This document shows, in pieces, positions 9,721 through 28,495 of a stretch of 38,593 nt of DNA; position 1 is the stretch's first letter; the number at the start of each line of letters is the position of its first letter. The notes beneath the pieces were generated by a model, which had not been told where the DNA came from, ran no database searches, and worked only from the letters and a program-made list of their open reading frames with translations. A program made the translations under genes and the position numbers. The stretch comes from a virus (Duplodnaviria > Heunggongvirae > Uroviricota > Caudoviricetes). The DNA is taken from the IMG/VR virus record IMGVR_UViG_2917865565_000005, positions 1 to 38,593 of that record; one strand, 5' to 3'.

Positions 9721-9910
9721 ATGCAGGACTATTTTTTGGAGTCTTTGAAGCTCCAGCGCATTGATTTTTTTTCTTAAGCTTGTAGCGGCTAGTGAGTGTA
9801 GTGATGAAGAGAAGGGACTGGCCCTGCAGTGGGTTTCTGAACTGACAGATGAACTCATGGCAAAAATCAGAACCCACGAATACAACCGCTCAATGGATGT
9901 CATCAGTTGA
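9721..9910 (+). CDS. N-terminal portion of a Tum-like SOS-inducible antirepressor (frame broken at a T8 run)
   Basis: ATG 9721 with SD GGAGG 9712-9716; as given it stops after 18 codons (9721..9777); removing one T from T8 (9765-9772) extends it to TGA 9908-9910. Confidence 0.4.
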
Positions 9911-9920
9911 GGTGACTTTT

Positions 9921-10154
9921 ATGCGCATTGAAATAATGATCGATAAAGAGCAGAAGATTAGCCAGTCTACCTTGGACGCCCTTGAATCCGAGCTTTACCG
10001 CAATCTGCGCCCCCTGTATCCCAAAACGGTAATTCGTATCCGTAAAGGTAGCTCTAACGGTGTGGAACTGACCGGACTGCAACTGGATGAAGAAAGAAAA
10101 CAAGTGATGAAAATTATGCAGAAGGTGTGGGAAGACGACAGCTGGCTGCATTAA
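9921..10154 (+). CDS. DinI-like domain protein (probably the C-terminal domain of the Tum-like antirepressor)
   Basis: From ATG 9921: 'MRIEIMIDKEQKISQSTLDALESELYRNLRPLYPKTVIRIRKG...KIMQKVWEDDSWLH', same length and pattern as E. coli DinI (MRIEVTI...WESADDWF) as recalled. Confidence 0.8.
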   Translation: MRIEIMIDKEQKISQSTLDALESELYRNLRPLYPKTVIRIRKGSSNGVELTGLQLDEERKQVMKIMQKVWEDDSWLH

Positions 10155-11163: not shown

Positions 11164-12313
11164 ATGAAGAAGTTAACTGCGAGACAAAGAGAGATTGACG
11201 TAAAACGCTCGATAAAGTTACGACAAGGGCGTGCTAAAGTTAGAAAAAAAGGTAAATCATTTCACTATAATGTTGAATGGCGTAAGGCTAACTATTGGAT
11301 TGAAGAACAATCAAAAAATGGATTAGATGTACAATTTGTAAGTAAAAAAAAGAAAGGGTTAATTCTAACTTTACCTTCTGAAATGAATTTTTCTACACAC
11401 TACGATGTTACTGTTCAGCATATTAATGCGATTCGAATGTTATCAGAGAGAAAAGGATTGCCTAATGCAGGTTATCAATTAGCATCTGTTAATTTTTTGT
11501 AATTTGAAGAAAATATCGACATCTGCAGCTCTTGTGTTAACTGCAGAGTTATCTAAATGGGATGATGCGATTAGGCAGAGGTTGACTCCAAAAATAGACG
11601 GTTGGGATAAAAATGTTCTACGTAATTTCTATGAATTGGGGTTCTTTGATTTATTCAAAAAAAGCAGGGATATAAAATTAAATTTTAATGATGAGTATTC
11701 AAAAATAAAAGGTAAGCGATTTGTAAAATATCTTAAAGGAAAGTGTGGGGAAATTAAGAAAACAAAAGTATTAAAAGAGGAGATTATTAAATTAGTTGGT
11801 GAGTCTATTGAAAAATGGACTTTCTTACATGGGGGCCTAAGTGAGGCTATTACCAATGTTTCTCATCATGCATATCCTTCTGATTGCGGATATAAAGAAT
11901 ATGATAAGAACTGGTATCTAACAGGATCTTATCATTTAGAAAGTAAGGAATTGAAGATAGTTTTTTATGATCAGGGTGTTGGTATCCCTAAAACTTTACC
12001 TGCATCAAAAGTTTGGGAAAAGGCATTAAATGTATTAGCATCAATTCCTGTATTGGAGCGATATCGTGATGAAGCACTCTTGAAAGCTGCGGTAGAGTTG
12101 GATAGGACAAGTACAGAAGAGGGAGATCGTGGTAAAGGCCTACAGGATCTACTTGAGTTTATTAAACAAAGAGAAAATGGTTATTTATCAATCATGAGCC
12201 TTAAGGGACTTTATAAACACTCAATGAATCAAGGTAATACAAAAATAAAAACTAAGAGTTTTGCATCCCCAATCTATGGTACACTAATAACTTGGAGTGT
12301 ATCTCTTGATTGA
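11164..12313 (+). CDS. GHKL (histidine-kinase-like ATPase fold) protein with basic N-terminal region; ORFs 11164..11502 and 11504..12313 are probably one gene
   Basis: Downstream ORF has N-box 'LSEAITNVSHHAY', G1 'VFYDQGVGIP', G2 'GDRGKGLQDL', G3 'YGTLITW'; it has no ATG or SD (starts at TTG one base after the upstream stop). Removing one T from T6 (11493-11498) fuses the two in frame. Confidence 0.6.
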
Positions 12314-12327
12314 GATGGAGGTTTAAT

Positions 12328-12735
12328 ATGAAAAATCTAGAAATTAATATAGGGAAAGAGTTTTCTTCTACTCCTTCAGGACGTTTCTATTCTGATATGA
12401 CAGATAGCAGCGGCGAACAGTTTAGAGAGGAGCTTTTATGGCCTCGCTTACAATTGCTTAAAGAAAAGCAAAAGATCGACATTATTTTGGATGATGACGT
12501 TGAAGGTTATGGTTCTTCTTTCCTCGTTGAAGGTTTTGCCGGTATAGTAAAATATGGATATATGGATAAACAACAACTATTAAGTAAACTTGAGTTAATT
12601 CAGAGAGATCCTGATTTTGCTTTGTTTAAGAGAAAAATAATACAATATATTAACGAGGCAGTGTTTGATTCAAAGGTTTATGAAAGTACCAAACCTATTT
12701 ATTTGTCTAAGTTGTTGACGCAAAAAAACACGTAA
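12328..12735 (+). CDS. Small STAS-like (anti-sigma-antagonist-like) protein
   Basis: 135 aa from ATG 12328 (SD GGAGG 12317-12321); 'KIDIILDDDVEGYGSSFLVEGFAGIVK' resembles the STAS phospho-serine loop region; stop overlaps the SD of the next gene. Confidence 0.5.
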   Translation: MKNLEINIGKEFSSTPSGRFYSDMTDSSGEQFREELLWPRLQLLKEKQKIDIILDDDVEGYGSSFLVEGFAGIVKYGYMDKQQLLSKLELIQRDPDFALFKRKIIQYINEAVFDSKVYESTKPIYLSKLLTQKNT

Positions 12736-12747
12736 GGAGTAAAGCAA

Positions 12748-13392
12748 ATGGAGCCCAATTATAATTATCATTATATGATGAGTAATAATGAGCTTTATTT
12801 TAGGGCGGGTTATGATGCTCAGCAATATGGGTTTGTTTTTTCTCATTCGGCTGTTGATGATGTCGACTTGGTACATATTATCAATGGTGGTTTTTCATCT
12901 GTTGCAGAAGCTATTAGTAACTCAGGAAACACCACACTTTCTGATGGGATTATACTTGCATTAGCAGGTGCGTTGAGTGCTTTTTTCTTTAATTTGATTC
13001 AAAAAGGAATTGACGCTAAGGCAAAACGTCTCACCAAATCTGGTGAAGCAATGTTATCCTTGATAAATGAATTGGAGGATATTGCAGTACGTTATTGGGT
13101 CAGAGGGCACGATTCATCTTGTGCTGATAATGAAAGCAATATTTGTGATGAGATTAATATCAAAGCCATGTTAATGACCTTGGATAAAAATATTAGGTTT
13201 ATGGTTGATAATTTACCGTTAAAAAACAAGTCTTTAAATAAAAATAAGCTGGAGAAATTTTCTTCTGATATTTATGATTTGGCATCTGGTGAAGATTTCG
13301 AAGCAGAGGTTAGGCCTCCCAATAAAACAAAGGCCTTTGCTATATCGAAAAAATGTAGTGAAGCAAAAGCCATCATTCTTGGTTTGATTTAA
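12748..13392 (+). CDS. Hypothetical protein with one hydrophobic (possible transmembrane) segment
   Basis: 214 aa; SD AAGGAG 12734-12739; hydrophobic stretch 'IILALAGALSAFFFNLI'; stop codon overlaps the portal gene stop on the other strand. Confidence 0.55.
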   Translation: MEPNYNYHYMMSNNELYFRAGYDAQQYGFVFSHSAVDDVDLVHIINGGFSSVAEAISNSGNTTLSDGIILALAGALSAFFFNLIQKGIDAKAKRLTKSGEAMLSLINELEDIAVRYWVRGHDSSCADNESNICDEINIKAMLMTLDKNIRFMVDNLPLKNKSLNKNKLEKFSSDIYDLASGEDFEAEVRPPNKTKAFAISKKCSEAKAIILGLI

Positions 13393-20918: not shown

Positions 20919-21312
20919 AGCGGTGCCTTATGTCTGTAATAACCCGGACAAACTGCATCTGTTTGTGGATAACGGTTCGCTGGTTGCCACGGGGGCCAGC
21001 TCCATGTCATGGGAGTACCGTTACACCCTGAACGTGGTGATTGAGGATTTCAGCGGCGACCAGAATCTGCTGATGGCCCCGGTTTTGCTGTGGCTGCGGG
21101 ATAACCAGCCTGATGCCATCAATAATCCGGCGTTACGGGAAAAGGTATTCACCTTTGAGGTGGATATTCTGCGCAATGATGTCTGTGATATCAGCCTGAA
21201 CCTGCAACTGACGGAGCGTGTGCTGGTCAGCACTGACGGCAGTGTGTCGAGTGTTGAAGCGGTAGCGGAACCCGATGAACCTGAAGAAATGTGGACGGTG
21301 AAACGTGGCTGA
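20860..21312 (+). CDS. R: Tail completion protein gpR
   Basis: 150 aa; 'LNKPQSLRHALNKAV...LHLFVDNGS...' resembles P2 R as recalled; exact start uncertain. Confidence 0.8.
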   Translation: MRVRSETLNKPQSLRHALNKAVPYVCNNPDKLHLFVDNGSLVATGASSMSWEYRYTLNVVIEDFSGDQNLLMAPVLLWLRDNQPDAINNPALREKVFTFEVDILRNDVCDISLNLQLTERVLVSTDGSVSSVEAVAEPDEPEEMWTVKRG

Positions 21313-21751
21313 ATTGCAGAAGGTGGACGACTGGCTGAGTGCCTTGCTGGCGAATCTGGAGCCAGCCGCAAGAAGCCTCATGATGCGCCAGCTGGCGCAG
21401 GAACTGCGCCGGACACAGCAGCAGAATATCAGGATGCAGCGCAATCCTGATGGCAGCAGTTATGAACCGCGCAGGGTAACAGCACGCAGCAAGAAGGGGC
21501 GCATCAAACGTCAGATGTTTACAAAGCTGCGCACCACAAAATACCTGAAAACTGCCGCCAGCGCCGATTCTGCCAGCGTACAGTTTGAAGGTAAGGTGCA
21601 GCGCATTGCCCGCGTTCATCACTACGGCCTGCGCGATCGCGTCAGTCGTAAGGGACCGGAGGTCCGTTACGCAGAGCGTCGTTTGTTAGGTATTAATGAT
21701 GACGTAGAATCCTTAACCCACGATGTATTATTGCGCTGGCTATCTAATTGA
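21305..21751 (+). CDS. S: Tail completion / virion morphogenesis protein gpS
   Basis: 148 aa, P2 S-like size and position. Confidence 0.8.
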   Translation: MAELQKVDDWLSALLANLEPAARSLMMRQLAQELRRTQQQNIRMQRNPDGSSYEPRRVTARSKKGRIKRQMFTKLRTTKYLKTAASADSASVQFEGKVQRIARVHHYGLRDRVSRKGPEVRYAERRLLGINDDVESLTHDVLLRWLSN

Positions 21752-22636
21752 TTGTTTACCAATCGATGGAGTTAAGTTTTTAGGCCTGAGGGCGAGAAAT
21801 GGTTCATAGTCTATCCATGAGTCCCAGTTAATTAATCCATCATCGAATCCTATATATTTCATTAATACTAAAGGTAAAAGTAAATTTAGATTTGAATAAT
21901 AATCACTTAATTTAATGATACTGCTTGGATCATCTTTCTTAATGTATCCAATATAATTTCCATTGTGGAATAGAGAGTTTCGAAGCGTGCAATAGTGAAT
22001 CACGTTTCTTTGTGGTACAGGGTTGCCTTCTTTAGATACATTAAAACCATAATCTTTTAAAACCTTTGTAATTATTTGTGGTGTATAACTAGATGTCGAC
22101 TCGTTATCGATATATCTGCACAGGGATTCTAATGCTGAGAAATTAAGGAAGTATTTAACATCTACATAGTCCATTCTTTCCCTAAAAGAAAATATAGACT
22201 TATAGAACGCAGTTCTAAAAGGGTTTTGATGAGAATTAATATTTCTATGAAGTTTATCCATCGCAAGCTCAATGAACGCTGAGCGACTCTTTTCAGAGAA
22301 GCAATCTTCAACAATTATTCCTAGTGATGACTTTCTTTTTGACTTCAATTTTAGTGGGAAATTATTATCTAACTTTTCAGGTGTTTCATGTTTCTCTAGG
22401 AAGTTTGATATGATTACATTTTTTTGTGTTCAATGAAACTTAAAACAGCTGAAAGATCATAAATTATTTGAGTGACGGTGTTTTCAGAAGCATGTGCGGG
22501 AGAGAAAAATCCACTTAATACATATTCGCTTCCATCGCATTTATTCTCTTTTAGTTCCTTAAAGGATTTGTAACGAGGTATCAGTGTCCCTCCTTTAAAA
22601 GTAAATTCTTTCGTGAAGCAATATCCATAGATACCG
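21740..22636 (-). pseudogene. AT-rich accessory gene inserted between S and V; hypothetical protein with HEPN-like R-x4-H motif; two ORFs separated at a T7 run
   Basis: Upstream piece from ATG 22636 (SD AAGGAG); downstream piece (21740..22348) has only a TTG start and no SD, but its frame is open back to the upstream stop; adding one base at T7 22419-22425 joins them (about 299 aa). 'CTLRNSLFHNGNY' contains R-N-x3-H. Confidence 0.4.
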
Positions 22637-22674
22637 ATTTGTGTCATCTGTAACTCCTTTGCGCGGATAAACAT

Positions 22675-22692
22675 TGTGTAGTAAGTCATACA
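22675..22692. promoter_or_regulatory. TGT-N12-ACA dyad upstream of gene V (candidate late-promoter activator site)
   Basis: TGTgtagtaagtcatACA; only about 57 bp from the V ATG (22741), closer than at O and FI, so weaker. Confidence 0.35.
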
Positions 22693-22740
22693 TTTCTGAC
22701 TCAATGTCCCACAATATATGTTTGTGCAAATATCGTCGAC

Positions 22741-23319
22741 ATGAATGCACAACTAACCGAAATCATGCGCCTTATCACCAATCTGATCCGCACAGGTGTA
22801 GTCACCGAAGTGGACCGGGAAAACTGGCTGTGTCGGGTGAAAACGGGCGACCTCGAAACCAACTGGATTAACTGGCTGACACTGCGCGCGGGCAAATCGC
22901 GCACCTGGTGGAAACCGTCTGTGGGCGAGCAGGTTGTGCTGTTCAGCCTGGGTGGCAATCTGGAAACCGCGTTTGCCCTGCCTGCTGTCTACTCAAATCA
23001 GTTTCCACCACCTTCAGACTCTGAGGACGGCAACGTGGTTGAGTACCCGGACGGTGGCTGGTTTGAATACGAACCCGCGACCGGGCGCTGGTATGTCAGG
23101 GGCATCAAATCTATGGTCATTGAGGCCGTCGACAACATCACCCTGAAAACCAGTGAGTTTGTGCTGGAGGCTGACCGCACGCGTATTAACAGCGAAGTGG
23201 TGATCAATGGTGGTGTTACCCAGAGTGGCGGTGCAATGAGTTCTAACGGGATCGTGGTTAATGCGCATCAGCATACTGGCGTCCTGAAAGGCGGCGATAC
23301 CACCGGAGGCCCGGTATGA
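22741..23319 (+). CDS. V: Baseplate assembly / spike protein gpV
   Basis: 192 aa; N-terminus and 'WWKPSVGEQVVLFSLGG' align to P2 V as recalled. Confidence 0.85.
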   Translation: MNAQLTEIMRLITNLIRTGVVTEVDRENWLCRVKTGDLETNWINWLTLRAGKSRTWWKPSVGEQVVLFSLGGNLETAFALPAVYSNQFPPPSDSEDGNVVEYPDGGWFEYEPATGRWYVRGIKSMVIEAVDNITLKTSEFVLEADRTRINSEVVINGGVTQSGGAMSSNGIVVNAHQHTGVLKGGDTTGGPV

Positions 23320-27410: not shown

Positions 27411-28401
27411 TTATTGGCTGGCTTTTGAGAGCAATATACTTTGTATGTGTGAAAATAATCGGTCCATGATTCTGGAAGAAATTGTACTGCTTAATAAGTA
27501 ACATATAGCAAAGCTGATTATTACTGTACCTACCAATATGAACGGCCATGACAACATCTTATTTAGGTAAGTGGAAATGTATAATATAAATAGACCATGT
27601 AACAGATATATACTAAGACTATTTTTTCCAAACCGCTCTAAAATTACACAGGTGGGTTTTAGCTGCATAAGAGCTAATACAAAAGCCGGAACCGCTGCGT
27701 AGTTGACTACTTTGTATAACATAAGTACAACTATAGATTTATCAAAATAAGAGAATGGAAAAGCGCCGTAGAGAAATATGGTAGGTGCAAGTATCGATAA
27801 AATCACTAATGCAATAACTGCTGAGAATAAAATGAGGTATATCGTATTTTTGTCGTGCCTTATACGTAATAAATTATTCCGATAAAATAACGCTCCTATA
27901 ATGAAGTAGGGTAGAAAATTAATTGTCCTCATAATGGATAGAGTCTGCGAACTGAAATCAATGAATTGAAATGCGAAGCTTATAAGTAAAGAAAGACAAA
28001 GAGGGTAACGGAAGGTGAATAGAACAGAAGCAATTATTTGCCAGAAAAAAAAGGCTTAAAAGATACCACATTATCCAATAAGGCGCGCCAATCTTAAGAT
28101 AACCAGAAATACTTCCTGTCAGCAAGAAGTTGATAAATTCATAAATAAAATTAAAAACAATGAATGGAACAAGAATATGTTTGCTTAATTTGTATATGTC
28201 AAGATTGCTACATCCCTTGCTAAGAAAACCAGAAATTAATACAAAGGCGGGCATGTGAAATGTGTAAATGAAATCATATATGTATTTCACTTGTTCATGT
28301 TCTACGCCACCGCCAAGTATGTGCGCCATAACCACCAGGAAAATTAACGCGCCTTTGAGCGTATCGATAGTGTTATCACGATTATCGATCTGTTGTGCCA
28401 C
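27411..28401 (-). pseudogene. Acyltransferase family 3 (O-antigen O-acetyltransferase-like) membrane protein; frame broken at an A8 run
   Basis: N-terminal motif 'NRDNTIDTLKGALIFLVVMAHIL' and 'FHMPAFVLISGFL'; multiple TM helices; two ORFs (27958..28407 and 27411..27932) join if A8 (28045-28052) is A7; GTG start 28401 with SD AAGGA (TTG 28407 in the ORF track). Confidence 0.7.
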
Positions 28402-28495
28402 GGACAATCCTTAAGTGTATATAGTTAGTTTTCTGTTGAAGACAGTATCCAGGGTAACGGATTCAATTAAAAGTATTAAATGAGAATCTGATAAT

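What the first reader, a model, noticed from the sequence alone, without database searches (positions are those of the whole stretch)
21740..22740. AT-rich minus-strand insertion between tail genes S and V encoding a possible HEPN-type protein
In P2 the R-S-V genes are contiguous; here about 1 kb of AT-rich DNA on the opposite strand is inserted. The coding (two ORFs that join across T7 22419-22425, about 299 aa) contains 'RNSLFH', an R-x4-H motif of the kind that forms the HEPN RNase active site in abortive-infection and toxin proteins. Six residues can occur by chance, so this is a lead, not a call. This site is not one of the P2 cargo hotspots I know of.
Basis: partly seen in the sequence, partly recalled or inferred. 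Interest (0 to 1): 0.55.

Follow-up and report, generated by a model that had tools for sequence, protein, structure and literature searches.

The report
Broken HEPN RNase gene in prophage
A P2-like prophage carries, in a known variable slot between two tail genes, a foreign AT-rich gene for a predicted HEPN-type RNA-cutting protein of a kind phages use to exclude rival phages, but this copy is broken by a 2-base insertion.

Summary
Window 21709-22740 is a ~1 kb AT-rich block (GC ~0.3 against ~0.57) between P2-like genes S and V, absent from the closest phages. It carries one minus-strand gene split into two ORFs.

- **R-S-V contiguity.** P2 itself has the nonessential orf30 in this gap, a classic variable region. 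About 40% of sampled related E. coli prophages carry varied cargo there.
- **The T7 run.** It has normal length. The break is a 2-bp duplication beside it, and eight E. coli genomes have the same gene intact (>=99.4% identical).

No Pfam, PADLOC or PDB sequence hit is significant, and no partner gene is conserved. A single-protein abortive-infection RNase is my inference and is untested. Verdict: a new member of a known kind, inactivated in this window, of moderate interest.

The parts
21709..22740 (.). AT-rich cargo module replacing the 68-bp S/V spacer of empty-site relatives. It brings its own last ~14 codons of S and its own pV promoter region.
   Evidence: Homology to phage 500465-1 ends at 21708 and resumes at 22741. 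GC profile.
21305..21751 (+). P2-type gene S (virion morphogenesis / tail completion). Its stop overlaps the stop of the cargo gene by 12 bp, convergently.
   Evidence: PF05069 Phage_tail_S on the identical locus. 97% aa identity to annotated S in L001.
22741..23319 (+). P2-type gene V (baseplate assembly / spike).
   Evidence: PF04717 Phage_base_V. Annotated homologues.
22414..22647 (-). ORF-A: the first 74 residues of the family protein, then HKKM and a premature stop (77 aa). It is the N-terminal fragment of the alpha/beta domain.
   Evidence: Translation. Annotated as WP_240783004.1 in Escherichia sp. E2562 only.
22654..22659 (-). Shine-Dalgarno AAGGAG, 6 nt upstream of the ATG at 22647.
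   Evidence: Read directly from the sequence.
22426..22427 (-). 2-bp insertion that breaks the reading frame. On the coding strand GAACAAAAAAAT became GAACACAAAAAAAT. Its placement within GTGT 22426-22429 is ambiguous.
   Evidence: Alignment with intact copies L001 and L003.
22419..22425 (-). A7 run on the coding strand (T7 on +). It has the same length in intact copies. A -1 slip here would restore the frame.
   Evidence: The repaired product was computed.
21740..22413 (-). ORF-B: the remainder of the gene in the -1 frame (family residues ~75-301). It holds the rest of the N-terminal domain and the whole HEPN-like helical domain.
   Evidence: Translation. phrog_4373 matches the joined protein 1-284 over profile 1-282/283, E=3e-109.
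22115..22129 (-). E-S-L-C-R, the E-x3-[RK] motif in predicted HEPN helix-2 (E173, R177).
   Evidence: E in 68/69 and R/K in 67/69 members. Helix 161-179 in the model. Motif definition from PMC3710099.
21965..21982 (-). R-N-S-L-F-H, the R-x4-H motif at the end of predicted HEPN helix-3 (R222, N223, H227).
   Evidence: R in 68/69, N/H/D in 68/69 and H in 68/69 members. Helix 215-228.
21809..21850 (-). GFDDGxINWxSWxD, a strongly conserved C-terminal tail motif of unknown role.
   Evidence: F267, D269, N273, W274, W277 and D279 are conserved.
22675..22692 (+). TGT-N12-ACA dyad, the type of Ogr activator site of P2 late promoters, 49-66 bp upstream of the V ATG. It is the only conserved element of the cargo-V spacer.
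   Evidence: Conserved in four phages. P2 has an annotated activator site at the equivalent place. That this consensus is the Ogr site is my own knowledge.

Best explanation
The block is a horizontally acquired single-gene 'moron' in the orf30 slot of a P2-like (Wadgaonvirus-like) prophage of Escherichia sp. E2562. The slot lies between the end of the O/lysis/R-S operon and the late promoter of the V operon.

The gene belongs to a small, patchily distributed family of ~285-300-aa two-domain proteins. The N-terminal ~110 residues form an alpha/beta domain of unknown type. The C-terminal ~170 residues form a HEPN-fold helical bundle carrying E-x3-R and R-N-x3-H.

Inferred mechanism: the intact protein is a metal-independent HEPN endoribonuclease, probably acting as a dimer. 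It is held inactive by, or gated through, its N-terminal domain. It is unleashed on infection by another phage, cleaves cellular or phage RNA, and aborts the infection. That would make it a prophage-encoded exclusion or abortive-infection gene.

In this window the gene is inactivated by a 2-bp duplication after codon 74. At most a trace of full-length protein could arise by -1 slippage on the adjacent A7 run.

Shown: the insertion, the frameshift, the family, motif conservation, the predicted fold, slot variability, and the absence of a partner gene. Inferred: RNase activity, regulation by the N-terminal domain, and the defence role.
For: - **Insertion and boundaries:**
- **Intact single 906-nt CDS in 8 E. 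coli chromosomes at >=99.4% identity; lesion mapped:**
- **Full-length family match:** phrog_4373, E=3e-109. 44 close and 189 cluster-level homologues share the same two-domain length.
- **Motif conservation:**
- **Structure:** the AF2 model has pLDDT 85 and pTM 0.84. Helix 161-179 carries ExxxR. Helix 215-228 ends in RNSLFH, followed by a hairpin and helix 246-264. This matches the published HEPN description: Rx4-6H at the end of helix-3, a polar N/D/H after R, Ex3[KR] in helix-2, and an insert between helices 2 and 3 (PMC3710099).
- **Database name:** UniRef calls a near-identical protein 'Apea-like HEPN domain-containing protein'. 3 of 69 relatives give weak HEPN_Apea hits.
- **Same family, same slot:** it occupies the S/V slot in Klebsiella Gegevirus (58% aa) and Salmonella RE-2010 (35% aa).
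- **Slot variability:** 20 of 49 sampled E. coli prophages are occupied. Cargo includes a TIR protein, the PADLOC candidate PDC-S59, DUF6216 and others, all AT-rich.
- **Distant homologues:** they sit in other mobile or defence contexts. These include a position next to PDC-S65 SIR2, between TmtA-like genes, and next to a resolvase and an integrase.
- **No partner:** no conserved neighbour gene in 15 loci.
Against: - No significant sequence-profile hit to any HEPN, Abi or defence model for this protein (Pfam, NCBIfam, PADLOC, PDB sequences).
- The fold rests on a predicted model.
- No experiment or paper on this family was found.
- No recognisable promoter for the gene, so expression in the lysogen is assumed.
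- The N-terminal domain is unidentified, so the trigger is pure inference.
- The copy in the window is broken, so nothing about it works here as read.
Confidence: 0.6

Rival explanations
1. The frameshift is a sequencing or assembly artefact, and the gene is intact and functional in Escherichia sp. E2562.
For: The truncated 77-aa product occurs in a single assembly. A second AT-rich cargo gene of the same prophage, the acyltransferase at 27411-28407, is also frameshifted. Apart from the indel, the gene differs from intact copies by only a few substitutions.
Against: A 2-bp dinucleotide duplication is not the usual 1-bp homopolymer error. All phage core genes in the window read through intact. 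The collection records the contig for two samples.
Confidence: 0.2
2. The split is bypassed. A -1 ribosomal slip, or transcriptional slippage, on the A7 run right after the insertion yields full-length protein (…IEHKKNVII…). The gene would then be expressed at a low, possibly tuned, level.
For: The needed shift is exactly -1 and the A7 run sits at the junction. The repaired product is colinear with the family over its whole length. Lys-tRNA slippage on A-runs is well known in E. coli (my own knowledge).
Against: All homologues, including >=99.4% identical ones, are single ORFs with the same A7, so the arrangement is not conserved. The heptamer is C-AAA-AAA, not a canonical X-XXY-YYZ. No stimulatory structure was looked for or seen. 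The repaired product has an extra residue and Q->H in the conserved FIEQKNV strand.
Confidence: 0.07
3. The family is a genuine HEPN RNase but not an anti-phage defence. It could be an addiction or toxin module that stabilises the element, or serve the phage's own RNA processing or host shut-off.
For: HEPN domains also act in toxin-antitoxin systems and RNA processing (PMC3710099). No PADLOC model matches. The gene lies next to a late promoter.
Against: No antitoxin-like neighbour is conserved, and there is no room for one here: 94 bp upstream and an overlap with S downstream. No repeats or RNA family that could be an RNA antitoxin. It is dispensable, since most close relatives lack it. Other cargo in the slot is defence-like: TIR, PDC-S59 and an HNH-like gene.
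Confidence: 0.15
4. The helical domain is not a catalytic HEPN, and the R-x4-H is conserved for structural or other reasons.
Confidence: 0.08

Closest known systems
ApeA-like HEPN family (Pfam PF18739, HEPN_Apea; Anantharaman et al. 2013, PMC3710099)
   Same: C-terminal HEPN-type bundle with conserved R-N-x3-H and an upstream acidic motif. The domain is fused to an N-terminal domain and found in conflict or mobile contexts. UniRef uses this name for a near-identical protein, and 3 of 69 relatives give weak hits.
   Different: The protein itself does not reach any threshold for PF18739 in the local Pfam copy. The described ApeA-NTD1 is ~300 aa and mostly beta. Here the N-terminal domain is ~110 aa and alpha/beta.
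Minimal HEPN toxins of MNT-HEPN toxin-antitoxin pairs (HI0074 1jog, TTHA0636 1wwp, SO_3166 5yep, 8xdj, 7ae2)
   Different: Sequence identity is only 7-12%. No MNT nucleotidyltransferase or any other conserved partner gene is present. The protein has an additional N-terminal domain and a conserved C-terminal FDDGxINWxxWxD tail.
Single-protein HEPN abortive-infection and defence effectors (AbiA C-terminal HEPN 8oz7; PrrC/RloC; Csm6)
   Different: The N-terminal domain is not an RT, ABC-ATPase or CARF domain by any search done here. No phenotype is known.
P2 orf30 and the orf30 variable region of P2-like phages
   Same: Same genomic slot (S/V gap), same opposite-strand orientation, same AT-richness (GC 0.34), and nonessential. 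The orf30 region is listed with the TO and Z regions as a place where P2-like phages carry horizontally acquired genes (PMC3091744).
   Different: Orf30 has no sequence similarity to this protein and has no R-x4-6-H motif.

Membership tests
HEPN superfamily | Conserved R-x4-6-H motif with a polar N/D/H right after the R | tested here: met
   RNSLFH. R222 in 68/69, N/H/D at 223 in 68/69, and H227 in 68/69 of diverse homologues. Definition from PMC3710099.
HEPN superfamily | Second conserved acidic residue in helix-2, typically E-x3-[KR] | tested here: met
   E173 in 68/69 and R/K177 in 67/69 members, on predicted helix 161-179.
HEPN superfamily | [quoted passage not shown] | tested here: met
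HEPN superfamily | Significant sequence-profile similarity to a curated HEPN family | tested here: not met
   No HEPN family at E<=10 for this protein. HEPN_Apea appears only in 3 of 69 relatives, best E=0.0037. PDB profile searches were negative. HEPN families are notoriously divergent, so this lowers family assignment more than fold assignment.
HEPN superfamily | Metal-independent endoribonuclease activity dependent on R and H | not testable with these tools
   Needs biochemistry.
Known anti-phage defence systems (PADLOC-DB 2.0) | Match to a model of a known or candidate defence protein | tested here: not met
   0 families for this protein and for its 288-aa E. coli relative.
Abortive-infection / prophage exclusion gene (functional class) | Carried as accessory cargo in a variable slot of a mobile element, with defence-type neighbours or slot-mates | tested here: met
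   The S/V slot is occupied in 20 of 49 sampled prophages by >=10 unrelated AT-rich genes, including TIR and PDC-S59. Distant homologues lie next to PDC-S65 and TmtA-like genes, a resolvase and an integrase.
Abortive-infection / prophage exclusion gene (functional class) | Protects a population from phage at the cost of the infected cell | not testable with these tools
   Needs plaque and growth assays.
Type II HEPN-MNT (or other two-gene) toxin-antitoxin system | Adjacent conserved antitoxin gene | tested here: not met
   No neighbour family is shared by more than 2 of 15 loci. In the window there is no room for a second gene.
Type III toxin-antitoxin (RNA antitoxin repeats) | Tandem repeats upstream of the toxin gene | tested here: not met
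   No tandem or direct repeats beyond one 12-nt chance pair, and no Rfam hit.

The most novel reading that the evidence does not exclude
The family defines a previously untested single-gene anti-phage system: a HEPN RNase gated by a new ~110-aa N-terminal sensor domain and a conserved FDDGxINWxxWxD tail. The S/V (orf30) gap would then be a third, largely overlooked defence hotspot of P2-like phages. In E. coli it holds TIR, HNH-like, ATPase (PDC-S59), HEPN and small membrane-protein cargo in ~40% of prophages of this lineage.
Probability: 0.4. Interest if true: 0.55.

Novelty: new member of a known kind. Interest (0 to 1): 0.4.

Why it matters
If the intact gene is an anti-phage RNase, it adds a compact single-gene HEPN effector with an unknown sensing domain to the defence repertoire.

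It would also show that the orf30 slot of P2-like phages is worth mining alongside the old/tin and Z/fun hotspots. The hotspot papers I read name other P2 sites explicitly and not the S/V gap. One mentions a hotspot 'within the tail genes' that I could not map.

For this particular window the practical message is more modest. The gene is a pseudogene as read, so the locus illustrates decay of a defence-like moron rather than an active system. The intact alleles (WP_161620926.1 and relatives) are the ones to test.

Tried and rejected
- **T-run length error or phase variation as the cause of the split.** Rejected: T7 is identical in intact copies and the lesion is a 2-bp insertion.
- **Homology to P2 Orf30.** None.
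- **Pfam, NCBIfam and PADLOC on the repaired protein.** Nothing meaningful; the SBDS_domain_II and TviA hits are sub-threshold noise.
- **The precomputed PF26308 tag on one relative.** It turned out to be a 'faint' YopA_M hit and is irrelevant.
- **PDB sequence and profile searches.** Only noise: 2p1a at E=0.03 and P450 at E~1.
- **Foldseek against PDB and BFVD.** Nothing significant. The afdb50 library was not available.
- **Locating the three HEPN_Apea-hitting relatives.** I scanned the 10 most divergent members and found none among them.
- **Second iterative homologue search with the 69-sequence profile.** No new distant links and no Pfam-tagged relatives.
- **Conserved partner gene among 15 distant loci.** None.
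- **P2 S/V context for distant homologues.** Absent.
- **Exact frameshifted junction in viral contigs.** 0 hits.
- **Repeats and Rfam in the block.** Nothing.
- **Sigma-70 promoter for the cargo gene.** No convincing site upstream of 22647. The only conserved spacer element is the late-promoter dyad.
- **Literature searches by accession and PHROG id.** No papers.
- **N-terminal domain.** I considered a GIY-YIG nuclease because of 'GIYGY' at residues 5-9. It is left as unknown.

Full report
**What is there**

The window is a P2-like prophage, about 90% identical at the nucleotide level to Escherichia phage 500465-1 (genus Wadgaonvirus). It comes from contig PDIJ01000005.1 of Escherichia sp. E2562, assembly GCA_004745205.1.

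Between gene S (21305-21751) and gene V (22741-23319) lies a block with GC 0.29-0.36. The flanks have GC 0.52-0.62. In the closest relatives S and V are 68 bp apart. Homology to the window stops at 21708, inside the last ~14 codons of S, and resumes exactly at the V start codon, 22741. So about 1.03 kb has been swapped in. The swapped segment includes an alternative 3' end of S and an alternative V-promoter region. That region keeps a TGT-N12-ACA dyad at 22675-22692. This is the type of site bound by the Ogr activator at P2 late promoters (my own knowledge). P2 has an annotated activator site at the equivalent place.

**The gene and its lesion**

- On the minus strand an ORF starts at ATG 22647, preceded by AAGGAG 6 nt upstream. 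It stops after 77 codons at 22414.
- The -1 frame continues open to the stop at 21740.
- Eight complete E. coli chromosomes carry the same insert at >=99.4% identity. In them it is one 906-nt CDS, WP_161620926.1 and allelic variants, 301 aa.
- Alignment shows that the T7 run (22419-22425) has the same length in the intact copies.
- The window instead has two extra bases right next to the run. On the coding strand GAA-CAA-AAA-AAT (E-Q-K-N) became GAA-CAC-AAA-AAA-ATG-TAA.
This is a dinucleotide duplication, not a homopolymer-length change.
- The truncated 77-aa product is on record for this one assembly only.
- A -1 slip on the A7 run would restore the frame, giving …IEHKKNVII…. Nothing suggests this is programmed, because all homologues are single ORFs.

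**What the protein is**

- The repaired protein matches PHROG 4373 ('unknown function') end to end: E=3e-109, residues 1-284 on profile positions 1-282 of 283.
- It has no meaningful Pfam, NCBIfam or PADLOC hit and no PDB sequence relative.
- The family is small and patchy, with 189 clusters at 50% identity among 1.84 billion representatives.
- It occurs in Enterobacterales, Acinetobacter, Vibrio, Marinobacter, Halopseudomonas, Methylobacter, Burkholderiales, Thiobacillus, Gallionella, Nitrospira and Smithella.
- Almost all members are 265-320 aa with the same two-domain layout.

Motif counts in a 69-sequence alignment reaching down to ~20% identity:

| Position | Residue(s) | Members |
|---|---|---|
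| 222 | R | 68/69 |
| 223 | N 63, H 3, D 2 | 68/69 |
| 226 | F | 63/69 |
| 227 | H | 68/69 |
| 173 | E | 68/69 |
| 177 | R 63, K 4 | 67/69 |

- A second RNxxxH at residues 134-139 of this protein is not conserved at all. Conservation is what carries the argument.
- Anantharaman et al. 2013 (PMC3710099) define the HEPN active site by four features. These are Rx4-6H at the end of helix-3, a polar N/D/H after the R, an acidic residue in helix-2 usually as Ex3[KR], and an insert between helices 2 and 3.
- The AlphaFold2 model (pLDDT 85, pTM 0.84) has exactly this layout. Helix 161-179 carries E173-x3-R177. An insert follows that includes helix 188-198. Helix 215-228 ends in RNSLFH. A hairpin and helix 246-264 complete the bundle.
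- Two weak independent pointers agree. Three of 69 relatives hit Pfam HEPN_Apea (best E=0.0037). UniRef names a near-identical Escherichia protein 'Apea-like HEPN domain-containing protein'.
- The N-terminal ~110 residues (beta-beta-beta-alpha-beta-alpha-beta-beta) and the strongly conserved C-terminal FDDGxINWxxWxD tail have no identified relatives.

**Context**

P2 (NC_001895) has the nonessential Orf30, 261 aa, on the opposite strand. It lies between the O-operon terminator and the V promoter. Orf30 is unrelated in sequence to this protein.
- The orf30 region is one of three regions where P2-like phages commonly carry foreign genes. The others are the TO region and the Z/fun region (PMC3091744).
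- Recent hotspot papers concentrate on gpA-gpQ, Z/fun and int/C. One mentions a hotspot 'within the tail genes' that I could not map. None names the S/V gap explicitly.
- I took an evenly spaced sample of 1058 E. coli records that match the S-V region. Of the 49 rows that span both genes, 29 have the empty spacing (1077-1080 bp) and 20 are occupied.
- The occupants I fetched are mutually unrelated, AT-rich (GC 0.33-0.37) single genes, mostly on the opposite strand:
  - this HEPN gene;
  - a 288-aa relative of it (56% identical);
  - a TIR-domain protein;
  - a 429-aa P-loop protein that is PADLOC candidate PDC-S59 (E=2e-197);
  - a DUF6216 protein (the one in E. coli BL21);
  - a 271-aa protein with an HNH-like N-terminus (by eye);
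  - a 384-aa protein with a C-terminal RDKIAH (by eye);
  - small membrane proteins.
- The same HEPN family sits in the same slot in Klebsiella Gegevirus phages (58% aa identity) and in Salmonella phage RE-2010 (35%).
- Distant homologues are not in P2-like phages and share no conserved neighbour.
- Some distant homologues lie next to defence candidates: PDC-S65 SIR2 in L008 and TmtA-like genes on both sides in L016.
- Others lie next to a resolvase and a tyrosine recombinase at the edge of other integrated elements.

**How it most likely works**

- Shown: a stand-alone, horizontally mobile gene. It encodes a two-domain protein whose C-terminal domain has the fold and both catalytic motifs of HEPN RNases. 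It is carried as dispensable cargo in a variable prophage slot.
- Inferred: the intact protein is a metal-independent endoribonuclease, most likely dimeric as HEPN enzymes generally are. Its activity is kept in check by the N-terminal domain and released by a cue from an infecting phage. RNA cleavage then arrests the cell and aborts the infection. This is the logic of single-chain HEPN effectors such as PrrC/RloC, AbiA or Csm6.
- There is no room for, and no conservation of, an antitoxin partner. There are no RNA-antitoxin-type repeats.
- Expression in the lysogen is assumed. I found no convincing promoter.
- In this window the gene is broken after residue 74, inside the N-terminal domain.
- The best internal restart is ATG 22174, with a purine-rich stretch before it. 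It would begin at helix-2 and lack part of the bundle.
- I therefore regard the window copy as non-functional. The exceptions would be that the indel is an assembly error (about 0.2) or that A7 slippage rescues a trace.

**Novelty and score**

The family is experimentally uncharacterised, and I found no paper on it. It is nevertheless a recognisable HEPN protein. A public database already tags it as Apea-like HEPN. It sits in a slot that the older P2 literature already lists as variable. I file it as a new member of a known kind.

The most novel reading not excluded has two parts. First, the family is a new single-gene defence system with a new sensor domain. Second, the orf30 slot is an under-mined defence hotspot. 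I give this a probability of about 0.4.

Interest is 0.4. It is a solid and testable lead, but not surprising to a specialist, and the copy in this window is a pseudogene.

Noticed in passing
window 27411-28407 (-): At the Z/fun-type slot after the tail-fibre genes, an AT-rich (GC 0.35) Acyl_transf_3 acyltransferase is split by a frameshift into two ORFs. ORF 27958-28407 covers profile positions 3-134 and ORF 27411-27932 covers 188-324. This is a second disrupted cargo gene in the same prophage.
   Followed up: partly
window 11164-13392 (+): The classic gpA-gpQ (old/tin) hotspot holds four co-oriented ORFs of 112, 269, 141 and 214 aa. None has a PADLOC hit, and the only Pfam hit is a weak STAS-like DUF4325 on 12310-12735. 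This is an uncharacterised candidate defence operon.
   Followed up: partly
window 9849-10154 (+): A DinI-like protein gene (PF06183, E=1e-22) lies downstream of the replication gene.
   Followed up: no
L029 768-1568; L032 699-1988; L031 594-1400; L034 597-1412; L037 530-1684: Other E. coli prophages of this lineage carry unrelated AT-rich cargo in the same S/V slot. Examples are a TIR-domain protein, the PADLOC candidate PDC-S59 (429-aa P-loop protein), and DUF6216 (present in E. coli BL21). Two more were judged by eye only: a 271-aa protein with an HNH-like CxxC…EHIIP start, and a 384-aa protein with a C-terminal ELRDKIAH that looks like another HEPN motif.
   Followed up: partly
L017 2108-2978: The Vibrio variabilis homologue of the HEPN family is also split into two overlapping ORFs (151 and 155 aa). 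This is a second independent disruption of a family member.
   Followed up: no
L005 7198-7764 (-): In Rahnella woolbedingensis, the gene next to the family homologue encodes a 188-aa protein with GRLRNITVHA, another R-N-x3-H motif. It has no PADLOC hit and may be a second small HEPN protein.
   Followed up: no
L009 4258-5250 (-) and L014 8413-9153 (-): The Marinobacter and an uncultured gammaproteobacterial homologue lie near related tyrosine recombinases. By eye these resemble integron integrases, which suggests the gene may also travel as an integron cassette. I did not test this with profiles or an attC search.
   Followed up: no
window 22245-22262 (-), protein residues 134-139: A second R-N-x3-H (RNINSH) occurs in the same protein but is not conserved in the family (the commonest residue at position 134 is D). 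It is a concrete example that the bare motif arises by chance.
   Followed up: yes
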